Positions 3,087-46,675 of a stretch of 47,674 bases of DNA are shown piece by piece; positions within the stretch are counted from its first letter, which is position 1, and every line of letters starts with the position of its first letter. Where the stretch lies: the NCBI GenBank assembly GCA_963575745.1, contig CAUYUJ010000148.1, positions 620,001 to 667,674 of the forward strand, read 5' to 3'. This DNA comes from Prorocentrum cordatum (lineage: Eukaryota). A model generated the notes under the pieces. That model did not search any database and was not told the origin of the DNA. It saw only the letters and a program-made list of their open reading frames with translations. A program made the translations under genes and the position numbers.

Positions 3087-3118
<32 letters not shown>

Positions 3119-3324: not shown

Positions 3325-3364
<40 letters not shown>

Positions 3365-3809: not shown

Positions 3810-3876
<67 letters not shown>

Positions 3877-3931
3877 GGGACACCATCATCACCACCATCA
3901 CCATCACCATCATCATCGTCAACGTCATTAA

Positions 3932-3969
<38 letters not shown>

Positions 3970-3975
3970 CCATCA
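2720..3975. repeat. (CAT)n microsatellite array punctuated by CGGGACAC motifs, with an internal duplication
   Basis: Long CAT runs with recurring 'atcgggacaccatc'; the block 'ttcggacaccatc...caccgggccaccatcatcaaaatcagcagcatcacctcattatc' occurs at ~3160 and ~3700. Confidence 0.95.
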
Positions 3976-4152
3976 CCGGGACACCCGCGAGACACCGGCG
4001 GGACATCGGCGGGACACCGCGCGGCACCGGCCCCCGGAAAGGAAACAGTTGGTACAGCCGCGCCTCAGCCGGAGGCGGGACACCGGCGGGACACCGCGCG
4101 GCACGGGCCCCCGGAGAGGAACCATTTGGTCCAGCCGCGCCTCAGCCGGAGG
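3976..4152. repeat. GC-rich tandem dimer (~76-bp unit)
   Basis: 'gcgggacaccgcgcggcac..ggcccccgga.aggaa....ttggt.cagccgcgcctcagccggagg' occurs twice. Confidence 0.85.
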
Positions 4153-17588: not shown

Positions 17589-18397
17589 ATCATTTTACCC
17601 GAACGCGTGGTGTTCTCCCCAGTGCCAGGGTTTTCATACGACACCAGGCAATACCCCCACTTCGTGGGGGGGGCATTACAAGCTCTACCAAATATCCAAA
17701 CGACTCTTCGCGACCACCCAAACCCAGCTTCCCGCCCTATGACGTTGGGACACTTCACTTCGTGGCGTGCGGACGACCGTGGCTACTACACTGGCGTGGG
17801 CACACCCACAGAACCCAATGGTTTTTGGAGATTTCGGCGTGCGCGCGCGAAGAAAAAACGAATGTGTCCCGCATGGTATTATTTGACAGGGATGATGGCC
17901 CTGGCAGGTGCGCAACCGTTGTCGCAGAAGTTCGAAAAAGTTGCTCGCAAAAGCCCGTTTGACAGAAATGTTTAAAAAGTGTTGGTTTTCCTACGAATCC
18001 GCAAGAGCGCGCGGGATGAGATTTTGACATTTTTTGTTGAAAAACCATTGGTTTTTTGATGTTTTTATGTTAAAATCGCTCCGAACACTAAGCTTTTGGA
18101 AGGATTTCGTCTTGCGCGCGCGAATGTCCACTTTACCTTATTTTTTGCAAGGGATTCTTGAAATTTGATTATATTAGAACAAGAAATGTCATTTTATAGT
18201 GTTTTTTGCAAGGGAAAACGGATTACAACAAAACAACCGGATCTTGATGACATCGTATTACCTGAGGCTTCCTCACGAAAATGATGAAAATGTAGCTGCG
18301 GCCTAGGCGGCGCAGGGGGGCCGTGCACCAGGGGCCCAACAATAATTATTCTTTAGAATTAATAATGTTCAACAACAACAACAACAAAAACAACAAT

Positions 18398-18428
<31 letters not shown>

Positions 18429-19323
18429 TCATCAACAATAACAACAACAACAATCATTTTACCCGAACGCGTGGTGTTCTCCCCAGTGCCAGGGTTTTCA
18501 TACGACACCAGGCAATACCCCCACTTCGTGGGGGGGCATTACAAGCTCTACCAAATATCCAAACGACTCTTCGCGACCACCCAAACCCAGCTTCCCGCCC
18601 TATGACGTTGGGACACTTCACTTCGTGGCGTGCGGACGACCGTGGCTACTACACTGGCGTGGGGTACACACCCACAGAACTTGGTCACTTATTCGGGGCG
18701 GTGTATGTCCCGCAAAAAAACGAATCTGTCCCGCATGGTATTATTTGACAGGGATGATGGCCCTGGCAGGTGCGCAACCGTTGTCGCAGAAGTTCGAAAA
18801 AGTTGCTCGCAAAAGCCCGTTTGACAGAAATGTTTAAAAAGTGTTGGGTTTCCTACGAATCCGCAAGAGCGCGCGGGATGAGATTTTGACATTTTTTTTT
18901 GTTGAAAAACCATTGGTTTTTTGATGTTTTTATGTTAAAATCGCTCCGAACACTAAGCTTTTGGAAGGATTTCGTCTTGCGCGCGCGAATGTCCACTTTA
19001 CCTTATTTTTTGCAAGGGATTCTTGAAATTTGATTATATTAGAACAAGAAATGTCATTTTATAGTGTTTTTTGCAAGGGAAAACGGATTACAACAAAACA
19101 ACCGGATCTTGATCAACTCGAATTACCTGAGGCTTCCTCACGAAAATGATGAAAACGTGGCTGCGGCCTAGGCGCGGCGGGGGGGGCGCGCACCAGGGGG
19201 CCCAACAATAATTATTCTTTAGAATTAATAATGTTCAACAACAACAACAGCAACAACAACAACAAGAATAACAACAATAATAACAACAGCAACAACAACA
19301 ACAACAACAAGAATAACAACAGC

Positions 19324-25779: not shown

Positions 25780-26493
25780 TATCCCACCAGCCCTCTGGGC
25801 GTAGGTGGTTTAGAGACGGAGGGGTTAGAGCGTCCAAGATGGCCCAAGATGGCTCCAAGAGGCCCTCCGAGAGCCCAAGATGGCGCACGATAGCTCAAGA
25901 TGGCTCAAGATAATCTCCGACATACCTCCAAGAGGCCCCGAGACGGCCCCAAGACGAATTCAAGTGCCCACCGAGCCCTCCAAGGACCCCTCTGAGAGGC
26001 CCAAATGGCTCCAAAACTTAAGGAAAATCAGTGTTTTTGGCCTTCTCGCCTTTTCGCTTCCGATGGGCCTCGGAGGCCTCAAGATCGCCCCAAGATGGCC
26101 CAAGAGAGCCCCAAGAGGGGCCCAAGAGGCACCAAGAGGGCCCCAAGAACGCCCAAGCGCCCCAAGAGAGCCCCGCCCCAAGAAGAGGGCCCCAAGACGG
26201 CCTTTGAGCCTCCGATGGGGGGGGGGGGCTGAGCCATGGGGCCCAAAGCGGTCCCAAGAGACCTCTCAGACTCCCCCAAAGAGCCCCAAGAGGGCCCCAA
26301 TATGGCCCCGAAAGAGCCCCAAGAGGGCCCCAAGAGGGCCCCAAGAGGACCCCAACAGGACCCCAAGAGGACCCCAAGAGAGCCCCAAGATGGCCACAAG
26401 AGACCTCCGAGAGCCTCTCGCAACAACACCTCAACTCGCCTGGCGATTGTTTCTGGATGGGCTGGTGGGGATACGCGAAGCGTTAAGGATTTT
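25780..26493 (+). mobile_element. Helentron/Helitron2-type non-autonomous element (HINE-like)
   Basis: 5' t|TATCCCACCAGCCC (25780-25793) pairs with the 3' subterminal inverted copy GGGCTGGTGGGGATA (26459-26473). This is followed immediately by the hairpin ACGC-GAA-GCGT (26473-26483) and then a T-run. Internal CCAAGA tandem repeats are present. This subTIR plus 3' stem-loop layout is the known Helentron/DINE-1 architecture. Confidence 0.65.
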
Positions 26494-26713: not shown

Positions 26714-28063
26714 TTAAGCCTTCGCCTTCGCCCAGCCCGAAGAAGGGCACCAAGGGTCGGGCTCCGCGATAGCCGGAGGGAGCTTCACCTGTAGCAAAAT
26801 CTCGCGCAAGACGCGGCCGACTATCGGGGCAGGCGGCGCCTCAGCGACGAGCTCCTTGTACTGGTTCTCGCCGATGATGCCGTCGTACTGGAAGTGGTCG
26901 TTCGGAATGGCCTGCAGCGACTCCATCTCAGTAGTCGTCATGAACCGCTGCCTCCCCCAGATGAAGTAGCCGTTCGGGCGGCTGGGCGCCAGGCCGATCG
27001 AGCATCCTCGCAAAGTGTCGGGGTCCCTCGTCGGACCGACGCTCAAGTCCGAGATGATGATCTGATTGCCGGGGGGGTTCGGCATCTTCACGTCTATGGC
27101 GGGCTCGAGCCAGTCCTTGACCTTCTTGTAATTGCGGAGCTGGGCCGGACTCAGGCCTGGCGGCTCGTCGAAGTCGGGCCTGGAGAGTGGCGCGACGTAT
27201 GGGTCCAGCACGTCCGCGAGGCTCTTCTCCTCCATCTGAGAGAGGGTCAACGGGTTGGAAACGGCCCTGGGATCCACTGCCGTCTTGAGGATGCCAACGA
27301 AGAACAACCTTTGCGACGCCTGAGGCAGGCCACCATCGCAACGCGCGTCCATCGGGTCGCTCCAGACGTAGTAGCTCGGGTCGCCGCTCTCGGTCGTGAG
27401 CTTCTTCTGCAGGTAGCCGTGCACCGCCGCCATCTCTGGCTTCATGCTCGCGCTGTAGAGGTGGGCCCTGGACTCGAGCAGGAATGCCTTGGGCCTCTTC
27501 TCCTTGATGTAGTTGAGAACGTGCATCGTGACGATATCCTTGCCGTGGGGGTTATCCACGCCGTCGGACAGCTCCTGTGCCGTGTACTGGCCATTGTTCG
27601 GAAGCGAGGCGCAGTAAATGTCCACGTAGGGCGTTTGCTTGTTGGGGCGCTTGGTGATGTCGCTGCACACGATGCACAAGCCCGGGTTGTGCTTCTTGAT
27701 GAACTTGCGTGCCCACAGCCGGTTGTCGGACGCGAACGCGTGCACGACATCCTTCCCGCCGTTGACCAGAACAGCGTCCAAAGCGACCTTGAACGTGTCC
27801 AGCCCCGAGCAGTCGGTGCCCAAGACCACCTTGTCGCTGCTGATACCACCAGTGCCGAGTTCCAGCTGGGACGCCATCTCCACGTCCAGCACCTCCAGCG
27901 ACTGCCGCGTATCATCCAGCTCCGCCGGGGCCACCTCTGGTGGGCCCTCCTCCTGCACAGGAAGCTCAGGGGCCGGGCGCTTGCGCGGGCGGGGCGGCAA
28001 GCCCAACGGGCGCAGAGGCAACGGGCGCAGAGGCAACGGGGCAGACTGCTGATTGAAGGCCAT
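26714..28063 (-). CDS. C5-cytosine methyltransferase-like protein, predicted catalytically inactive (449 aa from ATG 28063)
   Basis: Collinear with the DNMT at 40080-41270. Retained motifs are I (GTDCSGLD), II (FASD), III (DIT) and IX (RFMTTTEMESLQAIP). Degenerate motifs are IV (GFPCQ->SLPNN), VI (ENV->ESR), VIII (QSRRR->QASQR) and X (GNA->AEA). The start is chosen from the SL relic 58 nt upstream; the longer ORF N-terminus is low-complexity. Confidence 0.85.
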   Translation of the reverse strand: MAFNQQSAPLPLRPLPLRPLGLPPRPRKRPAPELPVQEEGPPEVAPAELDDTRQSLEVLDVEMASQLELGTGGISSDKVVLGTDCSGLDTFKVALDAVLVNGGKDVVHAFASDNRLWARKFIKKHNPGLCIVCSDITKRPNKQTPYVDIYCASLPNNGQYTAQELSDGVDNPHGKDIVTMHVLNYIKEKRPKAFLLESRAHLYSASMKPEMAAVHGYLQKKLTTESGDPSYYVWSDPMDARCDGGLPQASQRLFFVGILKTAVDPRAVSNPLTLSQMEEKSLADVLDPYVAPLSRPDFDEPPGLSPAQLRNYKKVKDWLEPAIDVKMPNPPGNQIIISDLSVGPTRDPDTLRGCSIGLAPSRPNGYFIWGRQRFMTTTEMESLQAIPNDHFQYDGIIGENQYKELVAEAPPAPIVGRVLREILLQVKLPPAIAEPDPWCPSSGWAKAKA

Positions 28064-28121
28064 GGCGACCCGCGTCGGTCGGCAAAAGTTCGCACGGCGG
28101 TACGTGCGCCTGCCCAAAAAA

Positions 28122-28143
28122 TTTGGGCCAAAACCATTGCGGA
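28122..28143 (-). promoter_or_regulatory. Relic dinoflagellate spliced leader upstream of the DNMT-like gene
   Basis: TCCGCAATGGTTTTGGCCCAAA vs DinoSL TCCGTAGCCATTTTGGCTCAAG (15/22), 58 nt before the ATG. Confidence 0.55.
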
Positions 28144-28564
28144 CTGGTGCGTTTCGCTCGCTTCTTGCGAAACGTTTTTTCGGCTTCGCAATTGCCCTGC
28201 TCGTCTGTTTGTGTTTCGCGCCGTAGGCCTGCCCCACCCCCTCCCCCTCCTCTTCCTCCTCCCGCTGCTTCCCCTCCCCCTCTCGTTTCGTTGGGGCGTC
28301 GGCTGCGACTGCGAACGATGATGGCGATCGCGGTGGCGGCAGCGGCGGTGATGACGATGACCGAGGTGATCGAGCTTGTGATGATGATGATGATGATGAT
28401 GACAGTGGCGATGACGATGATGATGATTTGTGTTTTACTTGCAACCGCCCAGGCCGCAACAGCCTCGCCAAATCTCGAATGTGTTTTGCAGCCTTGCAAC
28501 ACTCCGAATCATCATCGATGGCGCGCACCGACCGCGCATCGAACGGGGTCCAGCACCACATACT

Positions 28565-31500
28565 TTAAAAGCGCTCAGGGCCTGTAAGGCGCGTTCTCAC
28601 GCACGAGATGGCTGGATCGGCCTTTTCCCCGGCAGTCACAACAGCAACTGAGTTCGCGAATTTCTTCTGCGCGTTGAGACGGGTCGCCTTCTCTGCGAAC
28701 ACAAGCTTACAATCAGGCTCATACAAAGTCCATTTAGACTCGCTCCGCTCGCTCATTCCCCGAATTATCTCGTGCAAAGATGGGTGCGCAGCTATGAACG
28801 CTGCCGAACACCAAGCAAACCGATGCACTGTGACTTGCGGCTTGTAAGCCACGGCGACGCCCGCAGCACCGCGCGTTTCAAGATATACAAACGTGCACAC
28901 CACGCCGCCGATCAGGGCTGCCGCGAACTGGACGCGCTGCCCAGGAGACTCCACATCCTTAACAACGAACACGTCCGCCTCTGGACGAGTCGCAACTACG
29001 CCGGCCCCGTTCCTATTTAGTACGTCAGCAACACGGCTCGCCTCCGGGAGGGCCACGGACTTATCGAAGAAAACATTCTTGCCGCGCAGTCGTGCGACGT
29101 GCGGCGCCTCGGCTGCGGACTGTCTCTTGGCCTTCGCCACGTATGCATTGACCCTCTTTCTCTCCGTCGCTACTTGGTCGAGGACGCCCTTGAGCTCCTC
29201 CTGATGGTGACGCACCCCCGAAATCAGAAGATAGTTTGGGTCCTCCTCCTCCGCCGCGTCCTCCCCCCCCGTCCTCCTCCTCCCCCCCCGCCCCCCCCCG
29301 TCCTCCCCCCCCGTTTTTTGCTGTGTTGCATCATCAGCATTGCATTGTTTTCCTGCGTTGCATGTCGCCGCTTTGACTTGGCTGACCACGTGCCTGTTCG
29401 AGTGTTCTCCTCCTCCCCCCCTCAGCCCCCTCCCCCTGTGCACAGCTTTTCCCCTGCTGACTTCCCGCGCCCCGCAGGGGCCCTCCGACGTGGCGCCAGG
29501 GATGATAGGAGGGCGAGGAGTGTGGGGCCAGGGACGGGAGGGGGGCGGGGCCAGGGATAGGAGGGTGAGGAGGAAATTTTCATTGTTCCATCCTGGGTCC
29601 TCGCTGGCGCAGGCCATCTGGTCCTCCGGGATCTCTCCATTCAGCACGGAATCGTGAAAACGCTTCTGCCTCTTATTCTGCTGGAACTTCACCTCCTTCT
29701 CGTGGTCGGCGGCCCATCCGTCAACCCCGACGGTCCGCGTGCCCGGGGCGCTCATCAAGTCGACTGGCCGTTTCTGGGAAACAACGCCCTGAACATCGGC
29801 GCGCCTGCCCCGAATCCAGGACGTCTCAGTGTTGACGTCGCGCGCCCTTGCGGGGGCTTCCTTGCGAATGTCCATGCGGACGCGCACTCTTGGCCTGCGA
29901 ACCGGTCCGTAAATCTTTGCCCAGATCTTAGGCGCCAGCGCCACCGCTCGATCGATGTGGCCCTTGCTCCACGGCTGCTTGATCACGAGCTCGTCCTGTA
30001 TGTAGCCCCCCCACTTGTCTGGCCGATTCGCGCCAGCGAGGTTGAGGATCTGCGAGAAGTTCTGCTCAAGGCCGCTAGTGCTCGGGCCGTAGGCGCCGAA
30101 GGTCATCAGTACTGGCCTCAACGCCCCCACCGGGTGGAGCTTCGCGTTTCGGGCGTCTTTCTGACACTCGGCAACCGCCATCGCCCACGCGGCAATAGTA
30201 CCAGTACAAGACGGGTCTATCAGCATCTGCTGCGCTATCGGCCTCACGTCGTTGAGCTGGCTGAACAGCGCGGTCGGGTTCACGCCGACGAATTCGGCCA
30301 AGCTGTCGCAACTTGCTCGCAATTGGGACATAGTCTGATTCCCTAGGTCATGCTGCGAACCCTGTGCGGGCGCGCCGAGGGACTGCGATAGCTCGCCGAG
30401 ATTGAATGCCCTCATCGCGTAGATGATCTCGAACTCGGGAATTTCTGCACGTATGGTCTCGCGGGCCAAGTGGACCCAATTAGCCATCCGTTGCACGCAC
30501 CTCCTCCTGACGTCGACGGGGACGCCGGCCGCGCATCCCAGCGTCTTCTGACCATCCATTGCGAGGAGGAGCACGGGCGTCTGAAGTTGCTGCACCATGT
30601 ACTGCGTGTAGCCGAGCTTCCAACAATGTTCATCAACGAAGAGAGCATGGATCCTGCTGAGGAAGGCGCGCAAGTTCATGGAAACAGCAGAGACGTCCAT
30701 GCGCTCGGTGTCCATGACGCGGATGAGCATGTTGCACTCGTCCCCCGCATCTGCCAGGAGAGCCAACGTGACTGCGCGCTCCACGTCCAGAAAGGACAAG
30801 TACGCCGAGGCCAGCTTGCTCTCCTGCTTGCCCACGCGAGAGGTAGCTATCTGGGTTGCCGTCGCAATCACGCTCTTGAACAGCAGGACGTGTCGCCCGA
30901 AAGGCTTCTGCGTCGAATTGAAGCGATGCTTTGCGAAGCTCAGGTCGCGGATCCTGTTGGCCTGGAACGGGCACTGATCCAACTTCTCATTGTGTTGCTG
31001 AAACCATCCCTTGAACGTCGGGGAGTTCTGTATCAGGGTCGTGATCGAACCTTTCGCGAGGATCATGATGTCCGCCGTGTCGCTCAGGTACTGGTCTGCA
31101 GCCCATGCCCTCGAGCACACCCTCCGGACGCCGTGGGGCTTGTCCTGCGCAACCTTTTTCAAGTTAGGGAGCACGTCGCGAGAAATGCACCCAGCTGCCT
31201 GGGCCCACCCGGCGTCCTCTCAGGGCGCGGAAAATGGGATGGAGCGGGGGAGGAGAGGAGGAGGGCAGAAGGGAACGGAGGTTGCGGAGGAGGGGGAGAA
31301 AGAGGGTTAGGAGAGCACGAGGAGGCGGAGCAGCAGCGGTGGAGGTGGTGATAAGGGAGGTGGAAGACGAGGGAGAGTGAACGAGGAGAAGGAGGGAGGA
31401 GAGTAAAAGAGAAGGAGAGCAGCAGCGGCAGAAGGTCCTTCAAGAACTTGCCAGCCACTTGCTCCGGCGCTGCAGAGTCAGCTGTATACATCTGCACGGA

Positions 31501-32451
31501 CTCGCACACGCTCTTGAACAGCTTCTGGTCGAATCTGCCGTGCTTCTTCGAAAACGGCGGGCCCCGAAATGGCGTGCAAAACTCCCGAAGGACGTGCAGG
31601 GAAGCGTCCCGGATGCCAGTCGCTCTGCCGTTGAACGGCGGCTTTGTCAAATCACATACACCGACGATACCGCTCATCACGTTGATGTTCGCATCGCAGC
31701 CCCTGATGCGCATGAGCAGGACCTCCTCCGTAGTGTCTTGCAGAATAGAAGACACTGTCTTCTTCTTGAAGAAGGAGCGCAATAGAGACCGCAATGCCTC
31801 GGCTATGCACCAAACCATGCGTCTCTTCTTTCTTGCTCTTCCGAATGCGGGGAGGTCGGATGGGCCCTCTCCCCGAACTGCCTGCAGGAGGCTTCTGAAA
31901 GTCGAAACAGATGGGGCCCCAGGAACCGTAATTTGGACAGGCGTCTTCCCAGATGCGATGGTGCCAACGACGACGCTGCTCAGCTCCTTGTGAATCTGTG
32001 AGCTCACGTGCTTCTTGATGTTGGATTGGATCAGGACATCAGGCGAATCCAAACTGAATTGGGCGAGGCCGGGCTTGTTCATCTTGGTGCTTGTAGAGCA
32101 TATCCAGCAGCCCAGCGCTGGCCTTCCCGTCGACATCGTCGCGAACGCTGCCCACGTACCGCGGTCTGGGGCCAGAGGGTCCAAGAGGGTTTCGCGCCAG
32201 AACCAGTGCGATGTACCCAGGCGTTTAGCTGCGAAACAGATAACGCAATCTACAGAATCACACAAGTCGACGTGCTTCTCGTACTTGTCGATGGTGTAGT
32301 CACTGAGGCGAGTGAATTGGAAGTCCCTGCACAGCGGCGCCCCCAGGGCTGGCGGTTGGCTGCTGGCGGCGGGTCGCGGGCGCGTCGCCCCGCCGCTAGG
32401 CGCGGCGGACGGCGGCGGAATGGCGTCCAAGAAAACATCCCAGCCGTCCAT
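28565..32451 (-). CDS. hAT-superfamily-like DDE transposase (ZNF862/C17orf113-type), ~1088 aa; predicted exons 32451-31438, 31216-29600 and 29200-28565
   Basis: N-terminal Zn finger GCWICS...IKKHVSSQIHK; first Asp in SSILQDTTEE; second Asp in MYTADSAA; DKPH at the CxxH position; RFNS (RWxS-like); PSTSGLEQNFS (ERxFS-like Glu). Removing two low-complexity GA...AG segments (31437-31217 and 29599-29201, both with AG|GA at each junction) joins the two long ORFs in frame. The C-terminal region looks BRCT-like. Confidence 0.75.
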
Positions 32452-33469
32452 TGCCGGCAGATGGAGTCTGGCGTCAGCCAGGAAGCGAGGGGTGGTCTAA
32501 GGAAAGGGGGGCGGTGAAGGAGGTCAGGAGGAGGAGGGGGGAGGAGAGAGGCGGTGGAGGAGGTCGAGGAAATCGTGGTGGTGGAGACGAGGAGAGGAGG
32601 AGGAGGGCGGCGGGAGGAGAGACGGCCGGCCGGCGCGCGCCGCAGGGGCTGGCGAGGCCGAGGCGGCCGAGGGCTTCCGCGAGGCCGGGGCGGGCCGGCC
32701 CCGCTCGAGCCTCCGCGTCGTCGGACGACGAGGAAGGAGGATGAGGAGGAGGAGAGGGAGAGGAGGAGGAGGAGGAGGAGGAGGAGGAGGAGGAGGAGGA
32801 GGAGGAGGAGGAGAATGAGGAGGAAGGAGGAGGGGGAGGAGGAAGGAGGAGGGGGAGGAGGAGGGGGTAGGGGAGAGGAGGACGAGGGGGGGGCTAACCA
32901 CGCACGCACGCACACACGCACACACACACACACACACACACTCACTCACTCACTACTCGAAGCAACATCGATACCGCTACTCGCTGGACCTCGCCCGGGG
33001 CGCGTTCGGATCAGAATCTCGAGGCGAATCCAGCCGCGGCGACGAGTGTCATCCAGCGGTATCGACATTGCTTCATCCACCAGGTGTCAGGAGGAGAACC
33101 GCCTTCTCCTCCTCCTCCAGCTTGGGATCCTCAAGTGGCGGTGCTGTTGTGATGTTGTTGTGATGATAATGAGGATGAGGATCAGGATGGCGATGAGGAG
33201 CGTTCTGGTACGCCGGCGCTCTGCCTATTCGTCGCGCTGGCTAGGCTACCTCAGGATTCAAGCTGCAATCGGCCTCCTTAGGATGCCCTATCGCAGATCT
33301 AACAACGAGTGCGCTGCATAACGTCCTGCGCCGCCTAGGCTGACAGGGAAAATGCGAGCGCCGTCTATTCAACGTGTCTTCCCTGCTCCTCCTCCCTCCC
33401 TCTCCTCCCTCTCTCCCCGTCTCCTCCTCCTCCTCCATCTTCTTCCTTCCAGGCAACAGGCCAGCAACA

Positions 33470-34341: not shown

Positions 34342-34411
34342 ACGATGGGTATCTCTCGCCTAAAGATAGCTATTTGCTTGGCCCGACCCCACGAGGCAGG
34401 AGGAGGAGGAT

Positions 34412-35160
34412 GAGGAGGGAGGAGGGGTCCCAGCAGGGCTTTTTTCCCAACCATCCTGCGGCTCGTTTTGAAGAGACAGCGCCCCGCGTTCCCACCTTCT
34501 TCCCGCTGCCCCCTCCCTCCTCCCATCTTCATCACTTCGTCTTAACAGCTTCGGAAACTACACGGATGGAGGTCGCTTTCCCAACCACCCTGTGGTGTTG
34601 GGTCCTCGTTTTGAAGAGACAGCGCCAGTCGGGCTGGCTGGTTCGGCCTCGTTTAACGTTTGTTGGCCGGTTCGGCCACAGGGTTCGCATGCTCCCCAAC
34701 ACCCATTTTGGGCAATCAGCCTTAGACATATCATCCGTTGTTACGGATGGTCGTGTCGAAGTCTTCTGAAGCTGGGCGGGGGTGGAGCATGGGTCAGCCG
34801 AAGCAGCTGAGGGCGGATGGGTCAGCCGAAGCAGCTGGCACGGATTATGCCTTAGAGGAGATGGCGGAGAAGAGGAGGCGGACGAGAGGAGAGGATGCTC
34901 TTGTCCTGCACACGATGGCCAGGGAGGCGGAGGGGAGGAGATGAAATGAGGCGGTGGAGTGGAGAGGAGAGGAGGGAGGGAGGAGGGACGGAGGGAGGAG
35001 GGAGGGAGGCAGAGGAGGATGCGGCACTGATTCAAACTGACTAGTAGGTAGGTAGGAGGAGAAGGATGAGGAGGGGGAGGAGGAGGGGGGGGAGGGGGAG
35101 GAGGAGGAGGGGAGGGAGCCCAGCACACCTCGCGTTTCCTGGGGTTCCGCTTAAAACCGC
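34412..35160 (+). repeat. ~750-bp direct repeat, copy 1
   Basis: Near-identical to 41976-42732; flanked by a 35-bp duplication (34365-34399 and 35185-35219, 2 mismatches). Confidence 0.95.
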
Positions 35161-35519
35161 TTCGGTATTTTAGCCTGGGGTGTCGATAGCTATTTGTTTG
35201 GCCCGACCCCGCGAGGCAGACGACACCGCTCACCAGCGCTGAAGAGAGAGGCTGCACTTCTTTTCACTCCAAGGCTTGCCCGAGGCAAGGTCGGTTCGCT
35301 CTGCGAGCGTGCATGCAAACAGACATGGCAACAGCGATCGAAAACTCTGCCGGCAGAGATGCACACTAAAGGATACTCGGTCGTTCAGCCTGACATATAG
35401 CTGAGACCTTCTGTTGGCGCAAATCAATTCGCGCTGAGATGCACACTGCACGGGCCGCAGGTGGGCCATTCGAAGTATGGTGTAATGGGGCCCCTTGTGG
35501 GCCATTCCCTCACAGATGT

Positions 35520-36654
35520 CTATAGACCAATGAACTCTAGAAGGTCCTGGGGGGTCATAGCATCTGGCCTGGCATTGTTGCCAGTGCAGAAGCGGAAACT
35601 GGGCATCGCCCGCGGCATGCGGGATGTGTTTGCACTGCCGCGGTGCAAGTTCCACATATCTCATTACACAAAGCCCAGGCTTGCCTAGGAAAATCACCTG
35701 TTCCTTGTTGGTACTCCAGCTCTCCAGAAACAGCGGTCCATGTCGGAGGTCTGTTTCCGCCGTCAGGACTGATATACAGAACCATTGCAGGTAGTAGTTG
35801 CAGTCCCGATGCCAATCGCACGGGTTCTTGTGGGCGAGCTCGGTGGCGTCGCCCACACCTTGCTCGACGTAGTCACCGCCGCAATTGTGAAACTTGATGT
35901 TGTAGGCCTTGACCAACTCCGCCAGCACAAAGGAGAACTGATGACGTCGGAGGATGATCTTGAGAGCCTCTTGCCAAGCGCCGCGGTAGATATTCTGAAT
36001 ACTGTCGACGCACGTGCGCCCCGTCCCACGATTGTGCTTCGTGGCGGGCATGGACGCCAACAACGCCATGTCGACAGAAACTCTGTGCAAGGCGAGCAAG
36101 TCCTCGGCGTCCAGGCCGAGGTCGATCACGACGAAGCCGTGATCCATGAAGAAACGCCATGCCGCATCCCCATCTGCACGTTGCGCCACGGTCTCCGCAA
36201 AGAACACACCTGGAGGCGGCCCTGCTGGCGGCGCGGGCACCCTCGGCGGCGGCGGTATCTGCAGGGCCGACGGCGGCGGCCCTGCTGGGGGCCTGGGTAC
36301 GCTCGGCGGAGGTGTGCTCGGCGGCGGCCGCGCCGACGCGTTCACCACCGCGTCCGCCAGGGCGGGGGCTGCAGGACTCACCGGGCCATTCGGCGGCGAC
36401 CCTGCGGGCGCTGGCGCCCGGCGCTGGGACCACCGGGTCCGCCAGGGAATTTTCGGGTCAGCAGTAGCTGCAGACAGGAGGATCGACGACGGCGACTCCG
36501 CCGGCGGCTCGGGATCGTCGGACCAGTTCTCGGACGCGTCGGGCCCGTGCACGGCGAGCCTGTCTCCCGCGAGCCTGAGCACTTTCACGGCACACATGGC
36601 GCCCACGACCATGCCTACGGCACACATGGCGACGCCCATAACATATGGCTCCAT
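35520..36654 (-). pseudogene. PhyH-family 2-oxoglutarate/Fe(II) dioxygenase with an N-terminal hydrophobic helix and Pro-rich linker; frameshift at ~35649
   Basis: FFMDHGFVVI, WHRD (HxD), HGPL and GKPGLCVMR; after a 1-nt shift the frame continues LHRGSANTSRMPR (distal His and 2OG-binding Arg) to TAG at 35522-35520. The start MEPYVMG lies 41 nt after an SL relic. Confidence 0.75.
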
Positions 36655-36695
36655 GGCACGGCGCGGGTGCAGCCTTGAGCTGCTGGCGTCTGCAC

Positions 36696-36721
36696 CTTGA
36701 GGAAGCCCAAACGGCTGCGGA
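36696..36721 (-). promoter_or_regulatory. Relic spliced leader upstream of the dioxygenase
   Basis: TCCGCAGCCGTTTGGGCT[TCCT]CAAG matches 15/18 of the SL 5' part and ends in CAAG after a 4-nt insertion. Confidence 0.6.
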
Positions 36722-37065
36722 TGAGCACCGTCAAAACTCATAGTGCGGTTATCTGGTCATCTTCGCGCCCTCGCGCCGCCCCTCTCGAGGAAGGCGGCTT
36801 TCCAGGCTTCCAGGCATTGGCCGCGAGGCGCGAGACGCTATGACGCTATGACGATATGTGTTATGCGCTATGTTATGATGTTATGATCTCCGCGCCCCTC
36901 GGAGGATGGCAGGAGGGGGAGAGCGAGGAGGGGGGGGAGGAGGAGTAGGAGGAGGAGGAGGATGAGGAGGAGAAGGAGGAGGAAGAGGGAATCTCCTCCT
37001 CCTCCTCCCCCGTCTCCACCTCATCCTCTTCTTCATCAAGCGGCTCTCGGAGGCGGGGCGTCAGA

Positions 37066-38827: not shown

Positions 38828-39020
38828 ATACATGCATACATGCGTACGCATACACATACACATACACACATGCGTATGTATGTATGTATGTGTACATATG
38901 CATGCGAATACACATATACACACACACTCATGCGTATGTGTGTATGTACACACCCACATGCACGCACACTTACGTATGCGCATATGCCCGCCGCCGCCAT
39001 CATCGTCGCGTCGCCATCGC
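38828..39020 (+). repeat. (TACA/TATG)-rich direct repeat, copy 1 (copy 2 at ~39905-40070, extended by a microsatellite from 39735)
   Basis: Both copies share 'cacacactcatgcgtatg...tacacacccacatgcacgcacacttacgtatgc.catatgcc.gccgcc'. Confidence 0.85.
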
Positions 39021-39364
39021 ATCGCACGGGGTGGAGTATGATTATCATTGTGATTATAGTATATTATAGTCATGTGTTGATGATGATGATGATCGATGAT
39101 GATGATCGATGATCGTCATGATGATGATCATGATGATGATGATGATCATGGCTGATGACCATGATGATCAAATGGTAGCGACTTAACAGACACGGGGGGG
39201 GGGCTGACGATGGCGACGGTTGAAGATGGCAAAGGAGCGTTGACGTTTTCTCACGCCGGCCCCGACTGTCTGAGTCGCAACAGACACCACTCAGAGCCCC
39301 GACGGGCGGCGAATACCAGATACCTTAAAGGCCTGATTCCAGGACCGCTGGCAGAAGTCGCCAG

Positions 39365-39716
39365 CTGACGAAACCCCGATCGCGCGCGATCGGGGTTTCG
39401 TCAACATTGAGCGCTCAATGTTGACGAAACTCGGTGCGCGCGCGCTCCTGGGCGACCGGTGGACGTTGACGAAACCCCGATCGCGCGCGATCGGGGTTTC
39501 GTCACACCCCGCAGGGCCCGCGCACCGAGTTTCGTCAACATTGAGCGCTCAATGTTGACGAAACCCCGATCGCGCGCGATCGGGGTTTCGTCAGGCTGCT
39601 GGGCCGCCCCGCGCCTCCGCGCATACCCTTAAGGGCGCCCTAAGCCCACCAAGTTTCGTCAACATTGAGCGCTCAACGTTGACGACACCCCGTTCGCGCG
39701 CAAACGGGGTTTCGTC
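39365..39716. repeat. Nested perfect-palindrome array
   Basis: 38-bp palindrome A (TGACGAAACCCCGATCGCGCGCGATCGGGGTTTCGTCA) at 39366, 39467 and 39556. 36-bp palindrome B (GTTTCGTCAACATTGAGCGCTCAATGTTGACGAAAC) overlaps the outer A copies. 76-bp perfect inverted arms lie at 39365-39440 and 39519-39594, and a degenerate B-A copy at ~39653-39716. Confidence 0.97.
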
Positions 39717-40079
39717 GGGTTGATGGGCCTCCCTATGTATGTATGTATACATACATACATACCCTATGTATGTATGTATATACATGTGTATGTATGTATA
39801 CATACATACATACCCTATGTATGCATGTATATACATGTGTATGCATGTGTGTATGTATACATATACACATGTATGTATGTATGTATGCATGTATGTATGT
39901 ATGTATACACATACATACATACATACACACATGCGTATGTATGTATGTATAATATACATGCGCATACACATATATACACACACTCATGCGTATGCATGTA
40001 GGTACACACCCACATGCACGCACACTTACGTATGCACATATGCCGGCCGCCGTTCATCGTTGCGCGCCGAGGCGAGGCG

Positions 40080-41270
40080 TCATGCAGAACTGCTGCCTCT
40101 CCGCCACGGGTCAGCGAGCCGCTTGAAAAAACCAGCCTGCACAAGAAGGTTTCTCGTGAGGCGGCCGACGACGCTGACAGAGAATGCATTCCCGATCATC
40201 TGAGCGTACTGGCGGGGACTGCACGCGTTCTCGTAGTTGATGCGGCCCGGGGGGATCCCTTGAAGGCGCTCGAGCTCGTTCAGCGTCATGAATCGGTGCT
40301 TGGCAAAGATCCAGAAGCCCCCACCGCCAGACCGGTTGCGCGTCAAACACGGAGCGTACCCCCAGCCGTATTGCGGCGACCTGGTCTTGCCGCAGTCAAG
40401 CTCGGCGATGAGCATGTTGGTCTTGGCGAATATGTCTTGATGTTGAGACAGTTTGTCCACCAGGCGGGTGAAGTTGTGGATCTGGTAGTCATGGACTGGC
40501 AAGGTGCCGAGCTTGTCCGAATGCTTGTCCAAGATCTGTTCGATTGGCGTGCATGGGATCTCGCTCGGCCAACTCGTGTGCACATTGGACTTCTTGGACA
40601 GCGCTCCTGTGATGTACAATCGGCGCCGTGATTGCGGCAAGCCACCGACTTTCAACGTGTCGAGGACGGACATGCTCACAGTGTACGCGGGGGTACCGTC
40701 GGGGCCTTTGAGGCTGACGAGAAAGTTCAAGATGGCATTCAGCTCCTCCTGGAACCTCTGGTGAGTCAGGGCCTCAACGTTCTCCAAGATGAACACCGTC
40801 GGTAGCTTGGTCTGGATGTAGTTTAGGGCGAAAAACACCACGATGCCTCGGCCTTGAGGATCTGCAATCCCCGCGTGGATGCCCTGCACAGAGAATGGCT
40901 GGCAAGGGAATCCGATGATGTACAAGTCCACCCGCGGGACCGCCGCGTTATCGCGGGTGGTTATGTCTCCATAGAGCACGCACAAGTCGGGGTGGCTGGC
41001 AATGATAACCTTGCGCGTGGCGAAGTCAATTTCCGATGCGAACACGTGCACAATGGAGTTGCCAATGCCGAGCAACTCCAAGGCGAGCTTAGCAATGTCG
41101 ATGCCCGCGCAATCACTGCCGAACAGAATCTTGCCATCCGTTTCGCCCGTCAAGACCACCCTCTCAAGATCAATGTCCCGGAGAACGACGACATCTGGGG
41201 CCTTCCACTTCTTGCCGGCGCCGCGCGAGTCTGAGACGGCAGGCTTCCTTGTCGTGACCGGCGGCGCCAT
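40080..41270 (-). CDS. DNMT: C5-cytosine DNA methyltransferase (396 aa; a probable original 449-codon frame from ATG 41429 is interrupted by TAG at 41279-41277)
   Basis: Complete motifs: I GSDCAG, II FASEID, III GDIT, IV GFPCQPFS, VI ILENV, VIII PQSRRRLY, IX RFMTLNELERLQG, X QMIGNAFSV. The gene is intronless. An in-frame upstream basic extension reads MDDWSMLVIDTPPQQRKPKAKAAPKPKA...KKS*. Confidence 0.95.
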   Translation of the reverse strand: MAPPVTTRKPAVSDSRGAGKKWKAPDVVVLRDIDLERVVLTGETDGKILFGSDCAGIDIAKLALELLGIGNSIVHVFASEIDFATRKVIIASHPDLCVLYGDITTRDNAAVPRVDLYIIGFPCQPFSVQGIHAGIADPQGRGIVVFFALNYIQTKLPTVFILENVEALTHQRFQEELNAILNFLVSLKGPDGTPAYTVSMSVLDTLKVGGLPQSRRRLYITGALSKKSNVHTSWPSEIPCTPIEQILDKHSDKLGTLPVHDYQIHNFTRLVDKLSQHQDIFAKTNMLIAELDCGKTRSPQYGWGYAPCLTRNRSGGGGFWIFAKHRFMTLNELERLQGIPPGRINYENACSPRQYAQMIGNAFSVSVVGRLTRNLLVQAGFFKRLADPWRRGSSSA

Positions 41271-41491: not shown

Positions 41492-41975
41492 CCATCGTCG
41501 CCATCACGCATAACCATCATCACCATCATCGATATTATCATCATGATCGCCGTCGTCGTTCGTTGCATGGCGTTGCCATCGTCGTCGTCGTCGCGAGTGC
41601 AGTTTTTGGGCTCTCGGGCACCCCCCGAAGCTCCCTCCTCCTCCTGAGCCCCCTCCCCCTCCCCCTCTTCCCCCTCCTCCTCGGACACCCAGCGGAGGAT
41701 GGCCCTCGATCCTCGAACCTCCTCGCTCTTCGGTCCTCTCGCCCCCGTCCCTCCTCGGAGCAGCGGCGCCCCTCCTCGGAGCAGTGACGTCTGTGAGGGG
41801 CTCGTCACACGATCAGAAGAAGTCCGAGCAATGGTCGGAGGAGAGCCGTTTGAGACAACGGCAGTGATACAACGGCGGCCCAAATCCGCTCAGAATCGTT
41901 CCCCAGGAGGAGGGGGAGGAGGAGGGAGGAGGGAGGAGGAGGAGGTAGGAGGATGAGGAGGAGGAGGAGGAGGAG

Positions 41976-42732
41976 GAGGAGGGAGGAGGGGTCCCCGCAG
42001 GGCTTTTTTCCCAACATCCTGTGGTGTTGGGTCCTCGTTTTGAAGAGACAGCGCCCCGCGTTCCCACCTTCTTCCCGCTGCCCCCTCCCTCCCCCCATCT
42101 TCATCACTTCGTCTTAACAGCTTCGGAAATTACACGGATGGAGGTCGCTTTCCCAACCACCCTGTGGTGTTGGGTCCTCGTTTTGAAGAGACAGCGCCAG
42201 TCGGGCTGGCTGGTTCGGCCTCGTTTAACGTTTGTTGGCTGGTTCGGCCACAGGGTTCGCATGCTCCCCAACACCCATTTTGGGCAATCAGCCTTGGACA
42301 TATCATCCGTTGTTACGGATGGTCGTGTCGAAGTCTTCTGAAGCTGGGCGGGGGTGGAGCATGGGTCAGCCGAAGCAGCTGAGGGTGGATGGGTCAGCCG
42401 AAGCAGCTGGCACGGATTATGCCTTAGAGGAGATGGCGGAGAAGAGGAGGCGGACGAGAGGAGAGGATGCTCTTGTCCTGCACACGATGGCCAGGGAGGC
42501 GGAGGGGAGGAGATGAAATGAGGCGGTGGAGTGGAGAGGAGAGGAGGGAGGGAGGAGGGACGGAGGGAGGAGGGAGGGAGGCAGAGGAGGATGCGGCATT
42601 GATTCAAACTGACTAGTAGGTAGGTAGGAGGAGAAGGATGAGGAGGAGGAGGAGGAGGAGGGGGAGGAGGAGGAGGAGGAGGGGAGGGAGCCAAGCACAC
42701 CTCGCGTTTCCTGGGGTTCCGCTTAAAACCGC
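41976..42732 (+). repeat. ~750-bp direct repeat, copy 2
   Basis: Near-identical to 34412-35160; lies between the divergent DNMT and ORF 42975. Confidence 0.95.
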
Positions 42733-44390: not shown

Positions 44391-44809
44391 CCCTGGCGCC
44401 AGACGGTTCCGGAGGAGGCGGCGAGGAGGAGGATGAGGAGGAGGAGTAGTTCGTTCAGACATGATTCAGGTAATTCAACAGCCAGGGCAACGGCGTCGGC
44501 TTTCGCCGAAAAATCGCATCGTCGTCCTCTTCTCTCCTCCTCCTTCTCCTCATCCGTCCGCCCCCCCCCCCCTTCCTCCTCCTCCTCCCACGGGGGCCGA
44601 GGAGGAGTAAGCTCTTGGGGCTCCTTTGGGAAAGGGGGTCTGAGAGGTCTCTTGGGGCCGTTGCAGGCGCCGCATGGCTCAAACAAGGTGGGGGAAGTAC
44701 TTAATTCAGCCCCCCCCCCGGAGGCTCATCATCAGAGAGGGGGGAAGCGGGGAGGTGGAGGAAAGGATGCCGTTTTTCTGCACGCGATGGCCGAATCAGC
44801 CAATGTTAA

Positions 44810-46501
44810 TCACATAGCGTGTTGCCAGCACTCGCTGGCGTTGGCGCTGGAGCTGCTGGCCCGCTCCGCCCACGAAGCGCTCTGGCAACATGGGGAGCGC
44901 AAAGAATATGGACAGTACACACCAGGCAAATTGATGTGACAAGATGCGCACATAGGGGTTACCACGCGGCGCACACATGCTGGACTCGGGCGGATCCGCA
45001 TGGCGTGCTCCATAGCCCTCTTGTACTTCTTGTAGTTCCACCCGTCGTTGCACCGCTCGTTGCTGGCCCACGTGCTCCACGGCTTCCAGTCACCACTGCG
45101 GCGTGAAAGTTCTTCTGCCATACCCTGCACCTGGGCCTCCAACGCGCGGAAGTTGTTGTGAAGCGCCTCGTCCTGTTCTCGACGTTGTCGTAGAGCGTCG
45201 CTGACTAGCACCTGCTGCTGTAGCCGTTCCTGTGTTGCGCGAAGTCGATCCTCCTCAGCGCGAAGAGCTGCAATGCGTTCTTCATGTTGTCGAACTTGCC
45301 CAGCAGCTCGTTTTTCTGCTTCTTCTTGCTGTCGGATGCGTTCTTCATGTTGTCGAACTTGCTCAGCTCGTTCTTCTGCTTCTTCTTGCTGTCGGATGCG
45401 TTGTGCATGTTGTAGAACTTGCTCAGCAGCTCGTTCTTCTGCTTCTTCTTGCTGTCGGATGCGTTCTTCATGTTGTCGAACTTGCTCAGCTCGTTCTTCT
45501 GCTTCTTCTTGCTGTCGGATGCGTTTTTCATGTTGTCGAACTTGTTCAGCTCGTTCTTCTGCTTGTTCTTGCTGTCGGATGCGTTGTGCATGTTGTCGAA
45601 CTTGCTCAGCTCGTTCTTCTGCTTTTTCTTGCTGTCGGAGCTCCTCCGCATCGCGTTGCGCTTTAGCGTCTGCGGCTGCCAGTTCTTCTCGGAATTTGAT
45701 TTCGAGACGGCGTGCTTCTTGACGACGCCACTCATCATCGTCATCATCGCGTTCACGCCGGGGGACAATCAGTGGCGAACCCCACGTGGACGTTAAAGGC
45801 CTTGTAGATGATGCTAGCCATTTGTCCAGCTCCTGTCGGACGCGCTCCACCGTTGTGCCAGAATATCGGCGATGCGGTGGGCCTTGCTGATCGAGCCAGG
45901 CCCACACGCCAGGACCGTCCACATGCGGCAGCTCAAAGAGACGGGCGACTTCTTGCCACGAGCCAGCTTCGCGCATGCACTCGCGCAAGCTTTTTGTCAT
46001 CCACTTGTTATTCATGACTGGCCTCAGTTCAGTGAACATCACCAAGAAGCCCTTCTCTTCGACGATGTTCGCCCACATGTTGTCATCGTCGTGCACCATC
46101 GACCAAAGGCATTCGATGTCGTTGTCGATGTGGTGCGTGAGTCCCAGTCTGGAAGCGATAGCGCCCTTGCCCTTCTCGCCACTCTTCCGCTCGCACAGAT
46201 GTAGGTGGTTCAGCGGCATGCCCATCTCGACGAGCCCTGTCTGCTTGATGAAGCGCACGGGCCACGCCTCAACGTGACCGCGCTTCTTGTGGTACGACCA
46301 CCACGAGCCACGTTGGGTGCGACTCACGATGCACAGGTTCTCCAGCCCATGCACCATGCCGAACAACAAGGCGAACGCGAAAAAACCTCGCGTTACTGCC
46401 ACGTAGATGTCGTCGCCCTCTGGCTTCTTGTCATCACCGGTGTCCCTGGTGCTCATGACGTCGCCAAGATCGACGCCAACTTTGACCGCGGCGCGTGCCA
46501 T
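44810..46501 (-). CDS. HAD-superfamily-like domain plus coiled-coil repeats plus C-terminal Cys-rich Zn finger (563 aa)
   Basis: VGVDLGDV (motif I variant), LCIVSR (II), KGAIASRLGLTHHIDND (III/IV); about six 20-21-aa repeats EERAEQVRQHEERIRQQEEA (~45270-45640); CASCHINLPGVYCPYSLRSPCC. Confidence 0.7.
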   Translation of the reverse strand: MARAAVKVGVDLGDVMSTRDTGDDKKPEGDDIYVAVTRGFFAFALLFGMVHGLENLCIVSRTQRGSWWSYHKKRGHVEAWPVRFIKQTGLVEMGMPLNHLHLCERKSGEKGKGAIASRLGLTHHIDNDIECLWSMVHDDDNMWANIVEEKGFLVMFTELRPVMNNKWMTKSLRECMREAGSWQEVARLFELPHVDGPGVWAWLDQQGPPHRRYSGTTVERVRQELDKWLASSTRPLTSTWGSPLIVPRRERDDDDDEWRRQEARRLEIKFREELAAADAKAQRDAEELRQQEKAEERAEQVRQHAQRIRQQEQAEERAEQVRQHEKRIRQQEEAEERAEQVRQHEERIRQQEEAEERAAEQVLQHAQRIRQQEEAEERAEQVRQHEERIRQQEEAEKRAAGQVRQHEERIAALRAEEDRLRATQERLQQQVLVSDALRQRREQDEALHNNFRALEAQVQGMAEELSRRSGDWKPWSTWASNERCNDGWNYKKYKRAMEHAMRIRPSPACVRRVVTPMCASCHINLPGVYCPYSLRSPCCQSASWAERASSSSANASECWQHAM

Positions 46502-46675
46502 TCTCCAACGGCTTGCGCTCCGAGATCAGGTCGACAGCCACAATCTCCCGAAACGCAATCTCCAGCGCACAGAGTCACGCAATCTCCAGTGCTTCGAAGT
46601 GGGCACGCCACCATATGAAGCTGGGCCGAAGGGGGCGGCCCGCGGGATGGCCAAGGGGCGGCCCGCAGGATACGA

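What the first reader, a model, noticed from the sequence alone, without database searches (positions are those of the whole stretch)
39365..39716. Nested perfect palindromes (A-B...A...B-A, plus B'-A'): an origin-like or recombination-site-like structure
Seen: three exact 38-bp palindromes and two exact 36-bp palindromes share TGACGAAAC half-sites. They form 76-bp perfect inverted arms around a central palindrome, followed by a decayed extra copy. The array is very CpG-dense (CGATCGCGCGCGATCG), ends ~360 bp from the DNMT stop codon, and is bracketed by TACA-rich direct repeats. Perfect symmetry amid otherwise decaying sequence implies recent origin or selection. Inference: a branched cruciform acting as a replication origin (like baculovirus hr or parvoviral hairpins), a resolution site, or an iterated binding or methylation target for the element's proteins.
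Basis: partly seen in the sequence, partly recalled or inferred. Interest (0 to 1): 0.78.

Follow-up and report, generated by a model that had tools for sequence, protein, structure and literature searches.

The report
Nested perfect palindromes beside DNMT gene
A 350-base stretch of a dinoflagellate-type genome really holds five perfect 36-38-base palindromes nested inside a larger mirror-image hairpin, but nothing found here shows a replication origin; it looks most like a young, self-folding repeat in transposon-rich non-coding DNA.

Summary
Palindrome A (38 bp) occurs three times exactly and palindrome B (36 bp) twice exactly, with decayed copies of both. They overlap through the 9-bp half-site TGACGAAAC. 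Two 76-bp perfect inverted arms flank the central A copy, and about 185-bp TACA-rich direct repeats bracket the region. The array ends 362 nt from the stop of an apparently intact bacterial-type C5-DNMT gene.

I read the array as four copies of one unit of about 100-124 bp (linker-B-A-linker), one inverted and one truncated. As a single strand it folds into a hairpin of about 230 nt (z = -19).

No relative was found in the window or in the viral, metagenome and prokaryote collections.

No replication or recombinase gene was found. The context is a dinoflagellate repeat and transposon landscape, with closest named proteins from Prorocentrum. It includes a hAT-like transposase gene and an inactive DNMT paralogue 7-13 kb away.

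Best reading (0.42): a young, locally amplified foldback repeat. The origin, resolution-site and binding-array readings remain unsupported. No look-alike turned up in earlier scan notes.

The parts
39365..39440 (.). Left perfect arm: palindrome A1 (39366-39403) overlapping palindrome B1 (39395-39430) by 9 bp, plus 10 bp of linker. This is unit U1, in inverted orientation.
39441..39518 (.). Central 78 bp: a 26-nt linker, palindrome A2 (39467-39504, preceded by a remnant of B's right half) and a 14-nt linker. The segment is only partly symmetric.
   Evidence: (I2, I4)
39519..39594 (.). Right perfect arm: 10 bp of linker, palindrome B2 (39529-39564) and palindrome A3 (39556-39593). This is unit U2, in direct orientation.
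39595..39643 (.). GC-rich linker between U2 and U3 with small palindromes of its own (CCCTTAAGGG, AGGGCGCCCT).
39644..39733 (.). Decayed unit U3: B3 (39653-39688, 2 mismatches) and A4 (39680-39717, 5 changes, one mirrored pair of which is complementary). It is 88% identical to U2, at a start-to-start spacing of 124 bp.
   Evidence: (D3, D5)
38838..39026 (+). Left copy of the TACA-rich direct repeat that brackets the region.
   Evidence: (D7)
39890..40073 (+). Right copy of the TACA-rich direct repeat. It ends a few bases before the DNMT stop codon.
   Evidence: (D7)
40080..41270 (-). Single-exon bacterial-type C5 cytosine DNA methyltransferase ORF (396 aa) that keeps the PCQ, ENV, QxRxR and GNAFSV motifs. 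It is the neighbour of the array; that it belongs to the feature is not shown.
   Evidence: (PF00145, E 5e-38)

Best explanation
The array is a young, locally generated foldback repeat and not a dedicated origin.

Its building block is a unit of about 100-124 bp: a GC-rich linker, palindrome B, palindrome A, and a second GC-rich linker. A and B share the half-site TGACGAAAC, so a single strand can fully form only one of the two hairpins at a time.

I infer the following history. The unit was amplified in tandem; U2 and U3 lie 124 bp apart. One unit lost most of B, leaving A2. One unit (U1) was copied in inverted orientation by strand switching at the self-complementary A sequence, which produced the 76-bp perfect arms. 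Perfect symmetry within each palindrome can be kept without selection, by hairpin-templated correction, the known quasi-palindrome template-switch mutation route.

The sequence sits in microsatellite-rich non-coding DNA, 362 nt 3' of a DNMT gene, in a transposon-rich dinoflagellate region. What it does is structural: it can extrude hairpins or a cruciform, so it is likely to be a recombination- and rearrangement-prone site.

Shown here: the anatomy, the folding potential, the absence of copies elsewhere in the window, and the absence of replication genes. Inferred: the amplification and inversion history, and the lack of a dedicated function.
For: Unit structure: three long copies are 88-100% alike, one of them inverted, plus a lone A that carries a remnant of B (D3/D5, 31, 65). 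The linkers that follow each A share a G-N-N-GGGCC-like motif, read by eye.

Age: the arms and A2 are identical over 76 + 38 bp, whereas U3 is 88% and the flanking direct repeats about 90% alike. The core is therefore younger than its surroundings.

Setting: the region is a mosaic of microsatellites, (GGA)n, (TGA)n, (TATG)n and 51-bp TACA units. The array does not occur elsewhere in 47.7 kb.

No insertion signature: the longest flanking direct repeat among 37 x 72 tested boundary pairs was 5 bp.

No relevant genes: 130 ORFs gave no replication initiator, helicase, polymerase or recombinase domain.

Folding: -180 kcal/mol as DNA, against -86 +/- 5 for shuffles, z = -19.

Context from earlier notes: palindromes and hairpins are common in this genome's repeats (unchecked notes).
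Against: One locus with no comparators cannot separate neutral amplification from selection.

Five perfect palindromes, and a mirrored complementary change in A4 (positions 14 and 25, A-T to T-A), fit selection for symmetry as well as they fit hairpin-templated repair. My own estimate of chance for that pair is about 0.09.

Eleven regularly spaced copies of one 9-bp word look like a protein-binding array. CpG observed/expected of 1.58 is unusual if the DNA is methylated and decaying.

The whole genome could not be searched.
Confidence: 0.42

Rival explanations
1. The array is an iterated protein-binding site used by a mobile element that carries the DNMT. It would resemble the subterminal repeats that hAT transposases read with their BED fingers, or the palindrome arrays of viral enhancer-origins. 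Dimers would bind the inverted TGACGAAAC half-sites, 29 or 27 bp apart centre to centre. The element's DNMT might modify the CpG/GCGC-rich centres.
For: There are 11 half-sites (9 exact) in 352 bp against 0.29 expected.

A hAT-like transposase gene lies at 28568-32496. It has a BED-like CxxC...H...H finger and an S..E..FS motif (by eye). A 34%-identical relative gives a sub-threshold Pfam hAT dimerisation hit, E 0.008. Hermes is the top structural match: Z 8.3, rmsd 8.3 A, 227 residues aligned, next best Z 6.9.

Two DNMT paralogues are nearby. A candidate long-range inverted repeat at 26207-26292 / 44612-44729 would enclose everything. An earlier scan note describes a 17-kb hAT-like element with a DNMT in the same genome (unchecked).
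Against: There is no second cluster of half-sites anywhere in the window; the 9 one-mismatch hits outside the array are at chance level. The array therefore cannot be one of two matching ends inside this window.

Binding sites do not need perfectly palindromic inner sequence. The candidate ends have no target-site duplication and partly consist of a CCCCAAGAG repeat. The DNMT paralogue next to the transposase has no such array downstream (1 of 2). Z 8.3 for a helical model is within the range the tool calls possibly non-specific, and Foldseek found nothing at E <= 0.001.
Confidence: 0.2
2. The 230-bp core (39365-39594) is one copy of a dispersed foldback or MITE-type non-autonomous transposon with about 88-bp terminal inverted repeats. 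U3 would be a solo end of an older copy.
For: The inverted arms span 88 nt at 95% identity, 76 nt of it perfect, around a short centre (I2, 65), which is typical MITE/foldback geometry. The genome is rich in transposons (unchecked notes).
Against: No target-site duplication was found; the best was 5 bp among 2,664 boundary pairs. The window holds no other copy. Exact or gapped patterns gave none in viral contigs (0 loci). The 6 metagenome loci and 14 viral loci that matched looser patterns are unrelated single hairpins. No look-alike appears in earlier scan notes. The inverted similarity fades outward rather than ending sharply.
Confidence: 0.15
3. It acts as RNA. Transcribed with or after the DNMT mRNA, it would form a 76-bp perfect duplex hairpin that is diced into small RNAs or that blocks or terminates transcription.
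For: The RNA fold is -298 kcal/mol over 401 nt, z = -19.4. It lies 362 nt downstream of the DNMT stop, and the palindromes read the same on both strands.
Against: There is no expression evidence. No Rfam family reached its gathering score; the sub-threshold miRNA hits lie mostly in the TACA repeats. Symmetry gives no strand signal.
Confidence: 0.07
4. It is a replication origin or a resolution/recombination site of an integrated virus-like or episomal element.
For: The architecture recalls palindrome-repeat origins. It has cruciform potential and lies next to a DNMT of the bacterial/viral type.
Against: No initiator, helicase, polymerase, capsid, resolvase or tyrosine/serine recombinase domain appeared in 130 ORFs. 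There is only one array in 47.7 kb. The arms stop after 76-88 bp, so it is not a telomere or concatemer junction. The neighbours are dinoflagellate genes with introns and relatives from Prorocentrum, Amphidinium and Symbiodinium.
Confidence: 0.06
5. It is an assembly artefact around a hairpin-forming region.
For: Palindromes can be mis-assembled, and I could not lay reads.
Against: The structure has asymmetric unique linkers (26 vs 14 nt), a diverged fourth unit and small (36-38 bp) repeated palindromes. Chimeric-read artefacts instead give one kilobase-scale inverted duplication (inference).
Confidence: 0.04

Closest known systems
Foldback elements and long-TIR MITEs (non-autonomous DNA transposons)
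   Same: It has long, near-perfect inverted arms around a short centre. The arms are built from sub-repeats, and it folds into one long hairpin.
   Different: No target-site duplication and no other copy were found. The arms are themselves made of two overlapping perfect palindromes that share a half-site.
Baculovirus homologous regions (hr) and similar viral palindrome-repeat enhancer/origins (recalled knowledge, not from a call)
   Same: It consists of tandem units of roughly 70-120 bp. Each unit carries a palindrome of about 30-40 bp with a restriction-site-like centre, and the units are homogenised within an array.
   Different: The context is not viral, and Pfam found no IE-1-like or replication gene. 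There is a single array rather than several dispersed ones. The palindromes here are perfect and overlapping.
Subterminal transposase-binding repeats of hAT elements (Ac AAACGG motifs, Hermes subterminal repeats read by BED domains; recalled, with Hermes entry 8edg seen)
   Same: There are many copies of one short word in both orientations within a few hundred bp. A hAT-like transposase gene lies in the same window.
   Different: No matching cluster at a second end, no adjacent terminal inverted repeat with an 8-bp duplication, and the words are embedded in perfect 36-38-bp palindromes.
Quasi-palindrome template-switch mutation and palindrome-driven inverted duplication (reviews seen only as search listings and abstracts: PMC7999016, PMC3315005)
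   Same: This offers a mechanism for perfect symmetry, for mirrored double changes and for inverted duplication centred on a palindrome without selection.
   Different: It is a mutational process, not a family. That it acted here is inferred.
Bacterial REP/BIME-type dispersed palindromes
   Same: One proteobacterial MAG carries 23 loci of an approximately 85-bp perfect hairpin repeat whose stem includes the same 11-bp word GTTTCGTCAAC.
   Different: Only 11 bp are shared. The host domain, flanks and loop differ, so I judge it a chance overlap.

Membership tests
MITE / foldback DNA transposon | Terminal inverted repeats | tested here: met
   Inverted arms of 76 bp perfect, 88 nt at 95% identity.
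MITE / foldback DNA transposon | Target-site duplication at the ends | tested here: not met
   The longest flanking direct repeat was 5 bp among 37 x 72 boundary pairs, which is chance level.
MITE / foldback DNA transposon | Multiple dispersed copies in the genome | not testable with these tools
   No genome is held. There are 0 further copies in the window, and no related locus in the viral or metagenome collections.
Baculovirus-hr-like viral origin/enhancer | Tandem units each holding a palindrome | tested here: met
   Four units of about 100-124 bp carry palindromes A and B.
Baculovirus-hr-like viral origin/enhancer | Viral genome context with cognate binding and replication genes | tested here: not met
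   Pfam on 130 ORFs of 100 aa or more gave only two DNMT domains above cut-off. The neighbours have dinoflagellate relatives.
Baculovirus-hr-like viral origin/enhancer | Several homologous arrays dispersed along the element | tested here: not met
   There is one array in 47.7 kb.
Parvovirus/AAV-type terminal hairpin | Terminal position on a linear genome, with an HUH Rep gene | tested here: not met
   The position is internal and chromosomal, and no Rep domain was found.
Hairpin-telomere or concatemer-junction resolution site | Inverted symmetry continuing outward into long terminal repeats | tested here: not met
   Perfect symmetry ends at 39365 and 39594, and the flanks are unrelated.
hAT subterminal repeat region | Motif clusters at both element ends, next to short TIRs with 8-bp duplications | tested here: not met
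   There is no second cluster in the window. No convincing TIR with an 8-bp duplication was found: all 8 candidates scored 11/14 and lay mostly in low-complexity sequence. An end beyond the window's right edge is not excluded.
Hairpin-RNA / small-RNA locus | Transcription and processing of the hairpin | not testable with these tools
   Only the fold is shown. No Rfam family reached its gathering score.

The most novel reading that the evidence does not exclude
The array is the cis-acting landing pad of a giant DNMT-carrying hAT-like transposon of dinoflagellates. Eleven TGACGAAAC half-sites, set in two mutually exclusive perfect hairpins, would be read by an element-encoded BED-finger protein and/or marked by the element's own methyltransferase at their CGCG/GCGC centres. 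This would give the element an hr-like enhancer, insulator or extrachromosomal replication start of its own.
Probability: 0.12. Interest if true: 0.7.

Novelty: new member of a known kind. Interest (0 to 1): 0.35.

Why it matters
If the array is only a young foldback repeat, it is a neat local example of how palindromes breed palindromes in a repeat-rich dinoflagellate genome, and a likely fragile site next to a methyltransferase gene.

It would matter more if the array proved to be conserved beside DNMT or hAT-like genes in other copies. That would identify a cis element of the little-known DNMT-carrying DNA transposons of dinoflagellates. It would also offer a defined DNA target for testing what these bacterial-type methyltransferases and BED-finger transposases recognise.

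Tried and rejected
**Whole-genome search and read support**
- The whole-genome search for palindrome A failed because no genome is held.
I did not resend it. Read support and the content of the runs are therefore unknown. The shares there (0.65, 0.54, 0.28-0.36 and lower) are not evidence of anything.

**Collection scans**
- Exact A in viral contigs: 0 loci.
- Gapped A pattern in metagenome contigs: 6 loci. All are single terminator-like hairpins in unrelated contigs, each with one half-site per strand. This spent the only metagenome scan, so DNMT-based loci could not be fetched there.
- Gapped B pattern in viral contigs: 0 loci.
- Loose half-site pattern in viral contigs: 14 unrelated loci.
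- Gapped B pattern in prokaryote genomes: 25 loci, of which 23 come from one MAG's own 85-bp hairpin repeat and 2 are singles. None is related.
- The search for related loci in viral contigs found nothing with the DNMT or with the hAT-like alignment.

**Earlier scan notes**
- No look-alike for the array, the 884-aa ORF, the DNMT or the candidate right end, and nothing near this place.

**Protein and RNA searches**
- Rfam: no family reached its gathering score.
- The PDB sequence search gave nothing for the 884-aa ORF, the 508-aa ORF or the hAT-like profile.
- The ESM Atlas gave no usable hit.
- Foldseek gave nothing at E <= 0.001 for the model of residues 1-519 (mean pLDDT 65.7).
- The DNMT matches M.HhaI and M.HaeIII only over the catalytic core. 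I therefore dropped the idea of predicting its target (GCGC at both palindrome centres) from sequence.

**Sequence comparisons in the window**
- A third G-run + CTGA motif at 39196 does not align further with the candidate ends. I rejected it as an element end.

**Literature**
- Dinoflagellate plus palindrome, cruciform or transposon terms and the motif strings themselves (0 papers with the 16-mer or the 12-mer; the 9-mers occur only in primers and shRNAs) found no description of such an array.
- I saw listings and abstracts only, except passages of PMC5890265. That paper has no 'hAT' or 'palindrom' term. It describes DNMTs in Symbiodinium retrotransposons.

Full report
**What is there**

- Palindrome A, a perfect 38-mer, stands at 39366, 39467 and 39556.
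- Palindrome B, a perfect 36-mer, stands at 39395 and 39529, and with two mismatches at 39653.
- A and B overlap by nine bases, so the word TGACGAAAC or its complement is the outer arm of both. It occurs nine times exactly, all inside the array, against 0.29 expected.
- With one mismatch allowed, 11 of 20 hits are in the array, and the 9 outside are at chance level.
- The two perfect inverted arms are 39365-39440 and 39519-39594, 76 bp each. The third A lies between them, off-centre, with linkers of 26 and 14 nt.
- A further B-A copy at 39644-39733 is 88% identical to the right arm, at a spacing of 124 bp.
- Of 12 perfect palindromes of 16 bp or more in the window, the five of 36-38 bp are all here. 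Twenty Markov simulations never exceeded 20 bp.
- CpG observed/expected is 1.58 in the array and 0.90 in the window.

**How I read the anatomy**

The array is best seen as four copies of one unit: linker ending in CACCGA, then B, then A, then a linker containing a GGGCC motif. The first copy is inverted, and the second has lost most of B (the linker comparison is by eye). A and B share a half-site, so a single strand can complete only one of the two hairpins of a unit; alone, A folds at -21 kcal/mol and B at -16.3 kcal/mol. The whole region folds into one hairpin of about 230 nt with A2 at its tip. The energy is -180 kcal/mol as DNA against -86 +/- 5 for shuffles, z = -19. The RNA fold gives the same picture, z = -19.4.

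The decayed A4 carries five changes. Two of them are at mirrored positions and complementary (D5). By my own estimate this has a chance probability of about 0.09. It fits either selection for symmetry or hairpin-templated repair.

**Surroundings**

The array lies in a mosaic of microsatellites. It is bracketed by direct repeats of about 185 bp, rich in TACA and about 90% alike. The right repeat ends just before the stop of a 396-aa C5-DNMT ORF on the minus strand (PF00145, E 5e-38), which leaves 362 nt between array and stop.

The DNMT keeps its catalytic motifs. It has two relatives 94-95% identical in metagenome assemblies. After those, the closest are at most 36% identical and include Amphidinium and Symbiodinium proteins.

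Pfam on 130 of the 258 stop-to-stop ORFs of 100 aa or more (128 low-complexity ones were dropped) gave only this DNMT and a second, weaker DNMT hit at 26717-28564 above cut-off. That second protein is a 31%-identical paralogue over 369 residues and has lost the PCQ, ENV and GNAFSV motifs (by eye).

Directly upstream of that paralogue, ORFs 28568-31219 and 31162-32496 belong to one intron-split gene. A Prorocentrum cordatum protein 98% identical spans both. The family has only 6 members at E <= 0.01. Four clues point to a hAT-like transposase, with moderate support:
- a BED-like zinc-finger pattern and an S..E..FS motif (by eye);
- a sub-threshold hAT dimerisation hit in one relative, E 0.008;
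- Hermes transposase as the single best structural match, with Z 8.3, rmsd 8.3 A, 227 residues aligned and the next best at Z 6.9, although the tool warns that such Z values can be non-specific for helical models;
- against these, Foldseek found nothing.

The ORF at 35233-36756 has 16 relatives, with sub-threshold PhyH-dioxygenase hits in two of 7 relatives scanned.

A candidate long-range inverted repeat (26207-26292 and 44612-44729, about 82% alike) would enclose all of this. It has no target-site duplication and partly consists of a simple repeat.

**Search for relatives**

None was found.
- No genome is held for the window.
- Exact and gapped patterns for A and B gave nothing related in viral contigs or metagenome contigs.
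- In prokaryote genomes, one MAG's own 85-bp hairpin repeat shares 11 bp, which I take as chance.
- Protein-based locus searches in viral contigs found nothing.
- Earlier scan notes hold no look-alike.
- Those notes do say that this genome, a Prorocentrum-type dinoflagellate, has many giant transposons studded with palindromes, and a hAT-like element with a DNMT elsewhere on the same piece. These are unchecked leads.
- Twenty sequencing runs hold some words of the 1.1-kb stretch.

**Weighing the readings**

An origin or resolution site is unsupported:
- no initiator, helicase, polymerase or recombinase domain was found;
- there is only one array;
- the arms stop after 76-88 bp;
- the neighbours are intron-bearing dinoflagellate genes.

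A MITE is possible from the geometry. However, no target-site duplication exists (best 5 bp of 2,664 boundary pairs) and no second copy was seen.

A transposase- or DNMT-binding array is attractive because of the eleven regularly spaced half-sites and the hAT-like gene. Two observations count against it. No matching cluster marks another end within the window, and only one of the two DNMT-like genes has the array.

The features that are actually shown are these: repeat units in tandem and inverted order, perfect identity of the core next to a unit 88% alike, a microsatellite setting, and no insertion signature. They fit best a young, locally amplified foldback repeat shaped by slippage and strand switching at its own palindromes. 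I give this 0.42. The binding-array reading gets 0.20, a dispersed MITE 0.15, hairpin RNA 0.07, origin or resolution site 0.06, and artefact 0.04.

**Novelty and limits**

I found no description of such an array in the held literature (listings and abstracts only). PMC5890265, of which I read passages, describes DNMTs in Symbiodinium retrotransposons and mentions no hAT element or palindrome.

The overlapping, half-site-sharing palindromes are unusual in form. As a kind of object, though, a foldback or palindromic repeat is known.

Everything that would decide the function remains to be done: genome-wide copies, orthologous loci, reads, methylation, RNA and binding. Supplementary files of the papers were not consulted.

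Noticed in passing
window 26717-28564 (-): A 616-aa DNMT-like ORF lies directly downstream of the hAT-like gene. It is 31% identical to the intact DNMT over 369 residues but has lost the PCQ, ENV and GNAFSV catalytic motifs. It looks like an inactive methyltransferase paralogue kept as an open frame.
   Followed up: partly
window 28568-32496 (-): An intron-split gene of a tiny family (6 proteins at E <= 0.01) has a BED-like finger. A Prorocentrum cordatum protein is 98% identical. One relative gives a weak hAT dimerisation hit, and Hermes is the top structural match (Z 8.3). It is probably a divergent hAT-like transposase.
   Followed up: partly
window 34400-35184 and 41958-42732: Two copies of a dispersed repeat of about 775 bp, 97% alike and in the same orientation, lie either side of the DNMT/palindrome region. 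The left copy is flanked by a 35-bp direct repeat with 33/35 identical (34365-34399 and 35185-35219).
   Followed up: partly
window 26207-26292 and 44612-44729: An inverted repeat about 82% alike, 18.4 kb apart, includes a G-run + CTGA and a shared 19-mer. It would enclose both DNMT genes, the hAT-like gene and the palindromes. It has no target-site duplication. A third G-run + CTGA lies at 39196.
   Followed up: partly
window 35233-36756 (-): A 508-aa ORF has a conserved domain at residues of about 190-380 and 16 relatives in 1.8 billion representatives. Two relatives give sub-threshold PhyH (2OG-dioxygenase) hits.
   Followed up: partly
L021-L045 (prokaryote genome contigs): One uncultured proteobacterial MAG carries at least 23 loci of an approximately 85-bp near-perfect hairpin repeat with variable loops, a REP/MITE-like family. 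By chance it shares the 11-bp word GTTTCGTCAAC with palindrome B.
   Followed up: no
window 2687-3985 and 17552-19319: There are large tandem repeat arrays: about 76-80% self-similar repeats with very high CpG at 2.3-4.0 kb, and an approximately 865-bp unit repeated at 93% at 17.5-19.3 kb.
   Followed up: no
window 44813-46525 (-): A 571-aa ORF has a long run of near-identical EERAEQVRQHE-type coiled-coil repeats and no family hit.
   Followed up: no
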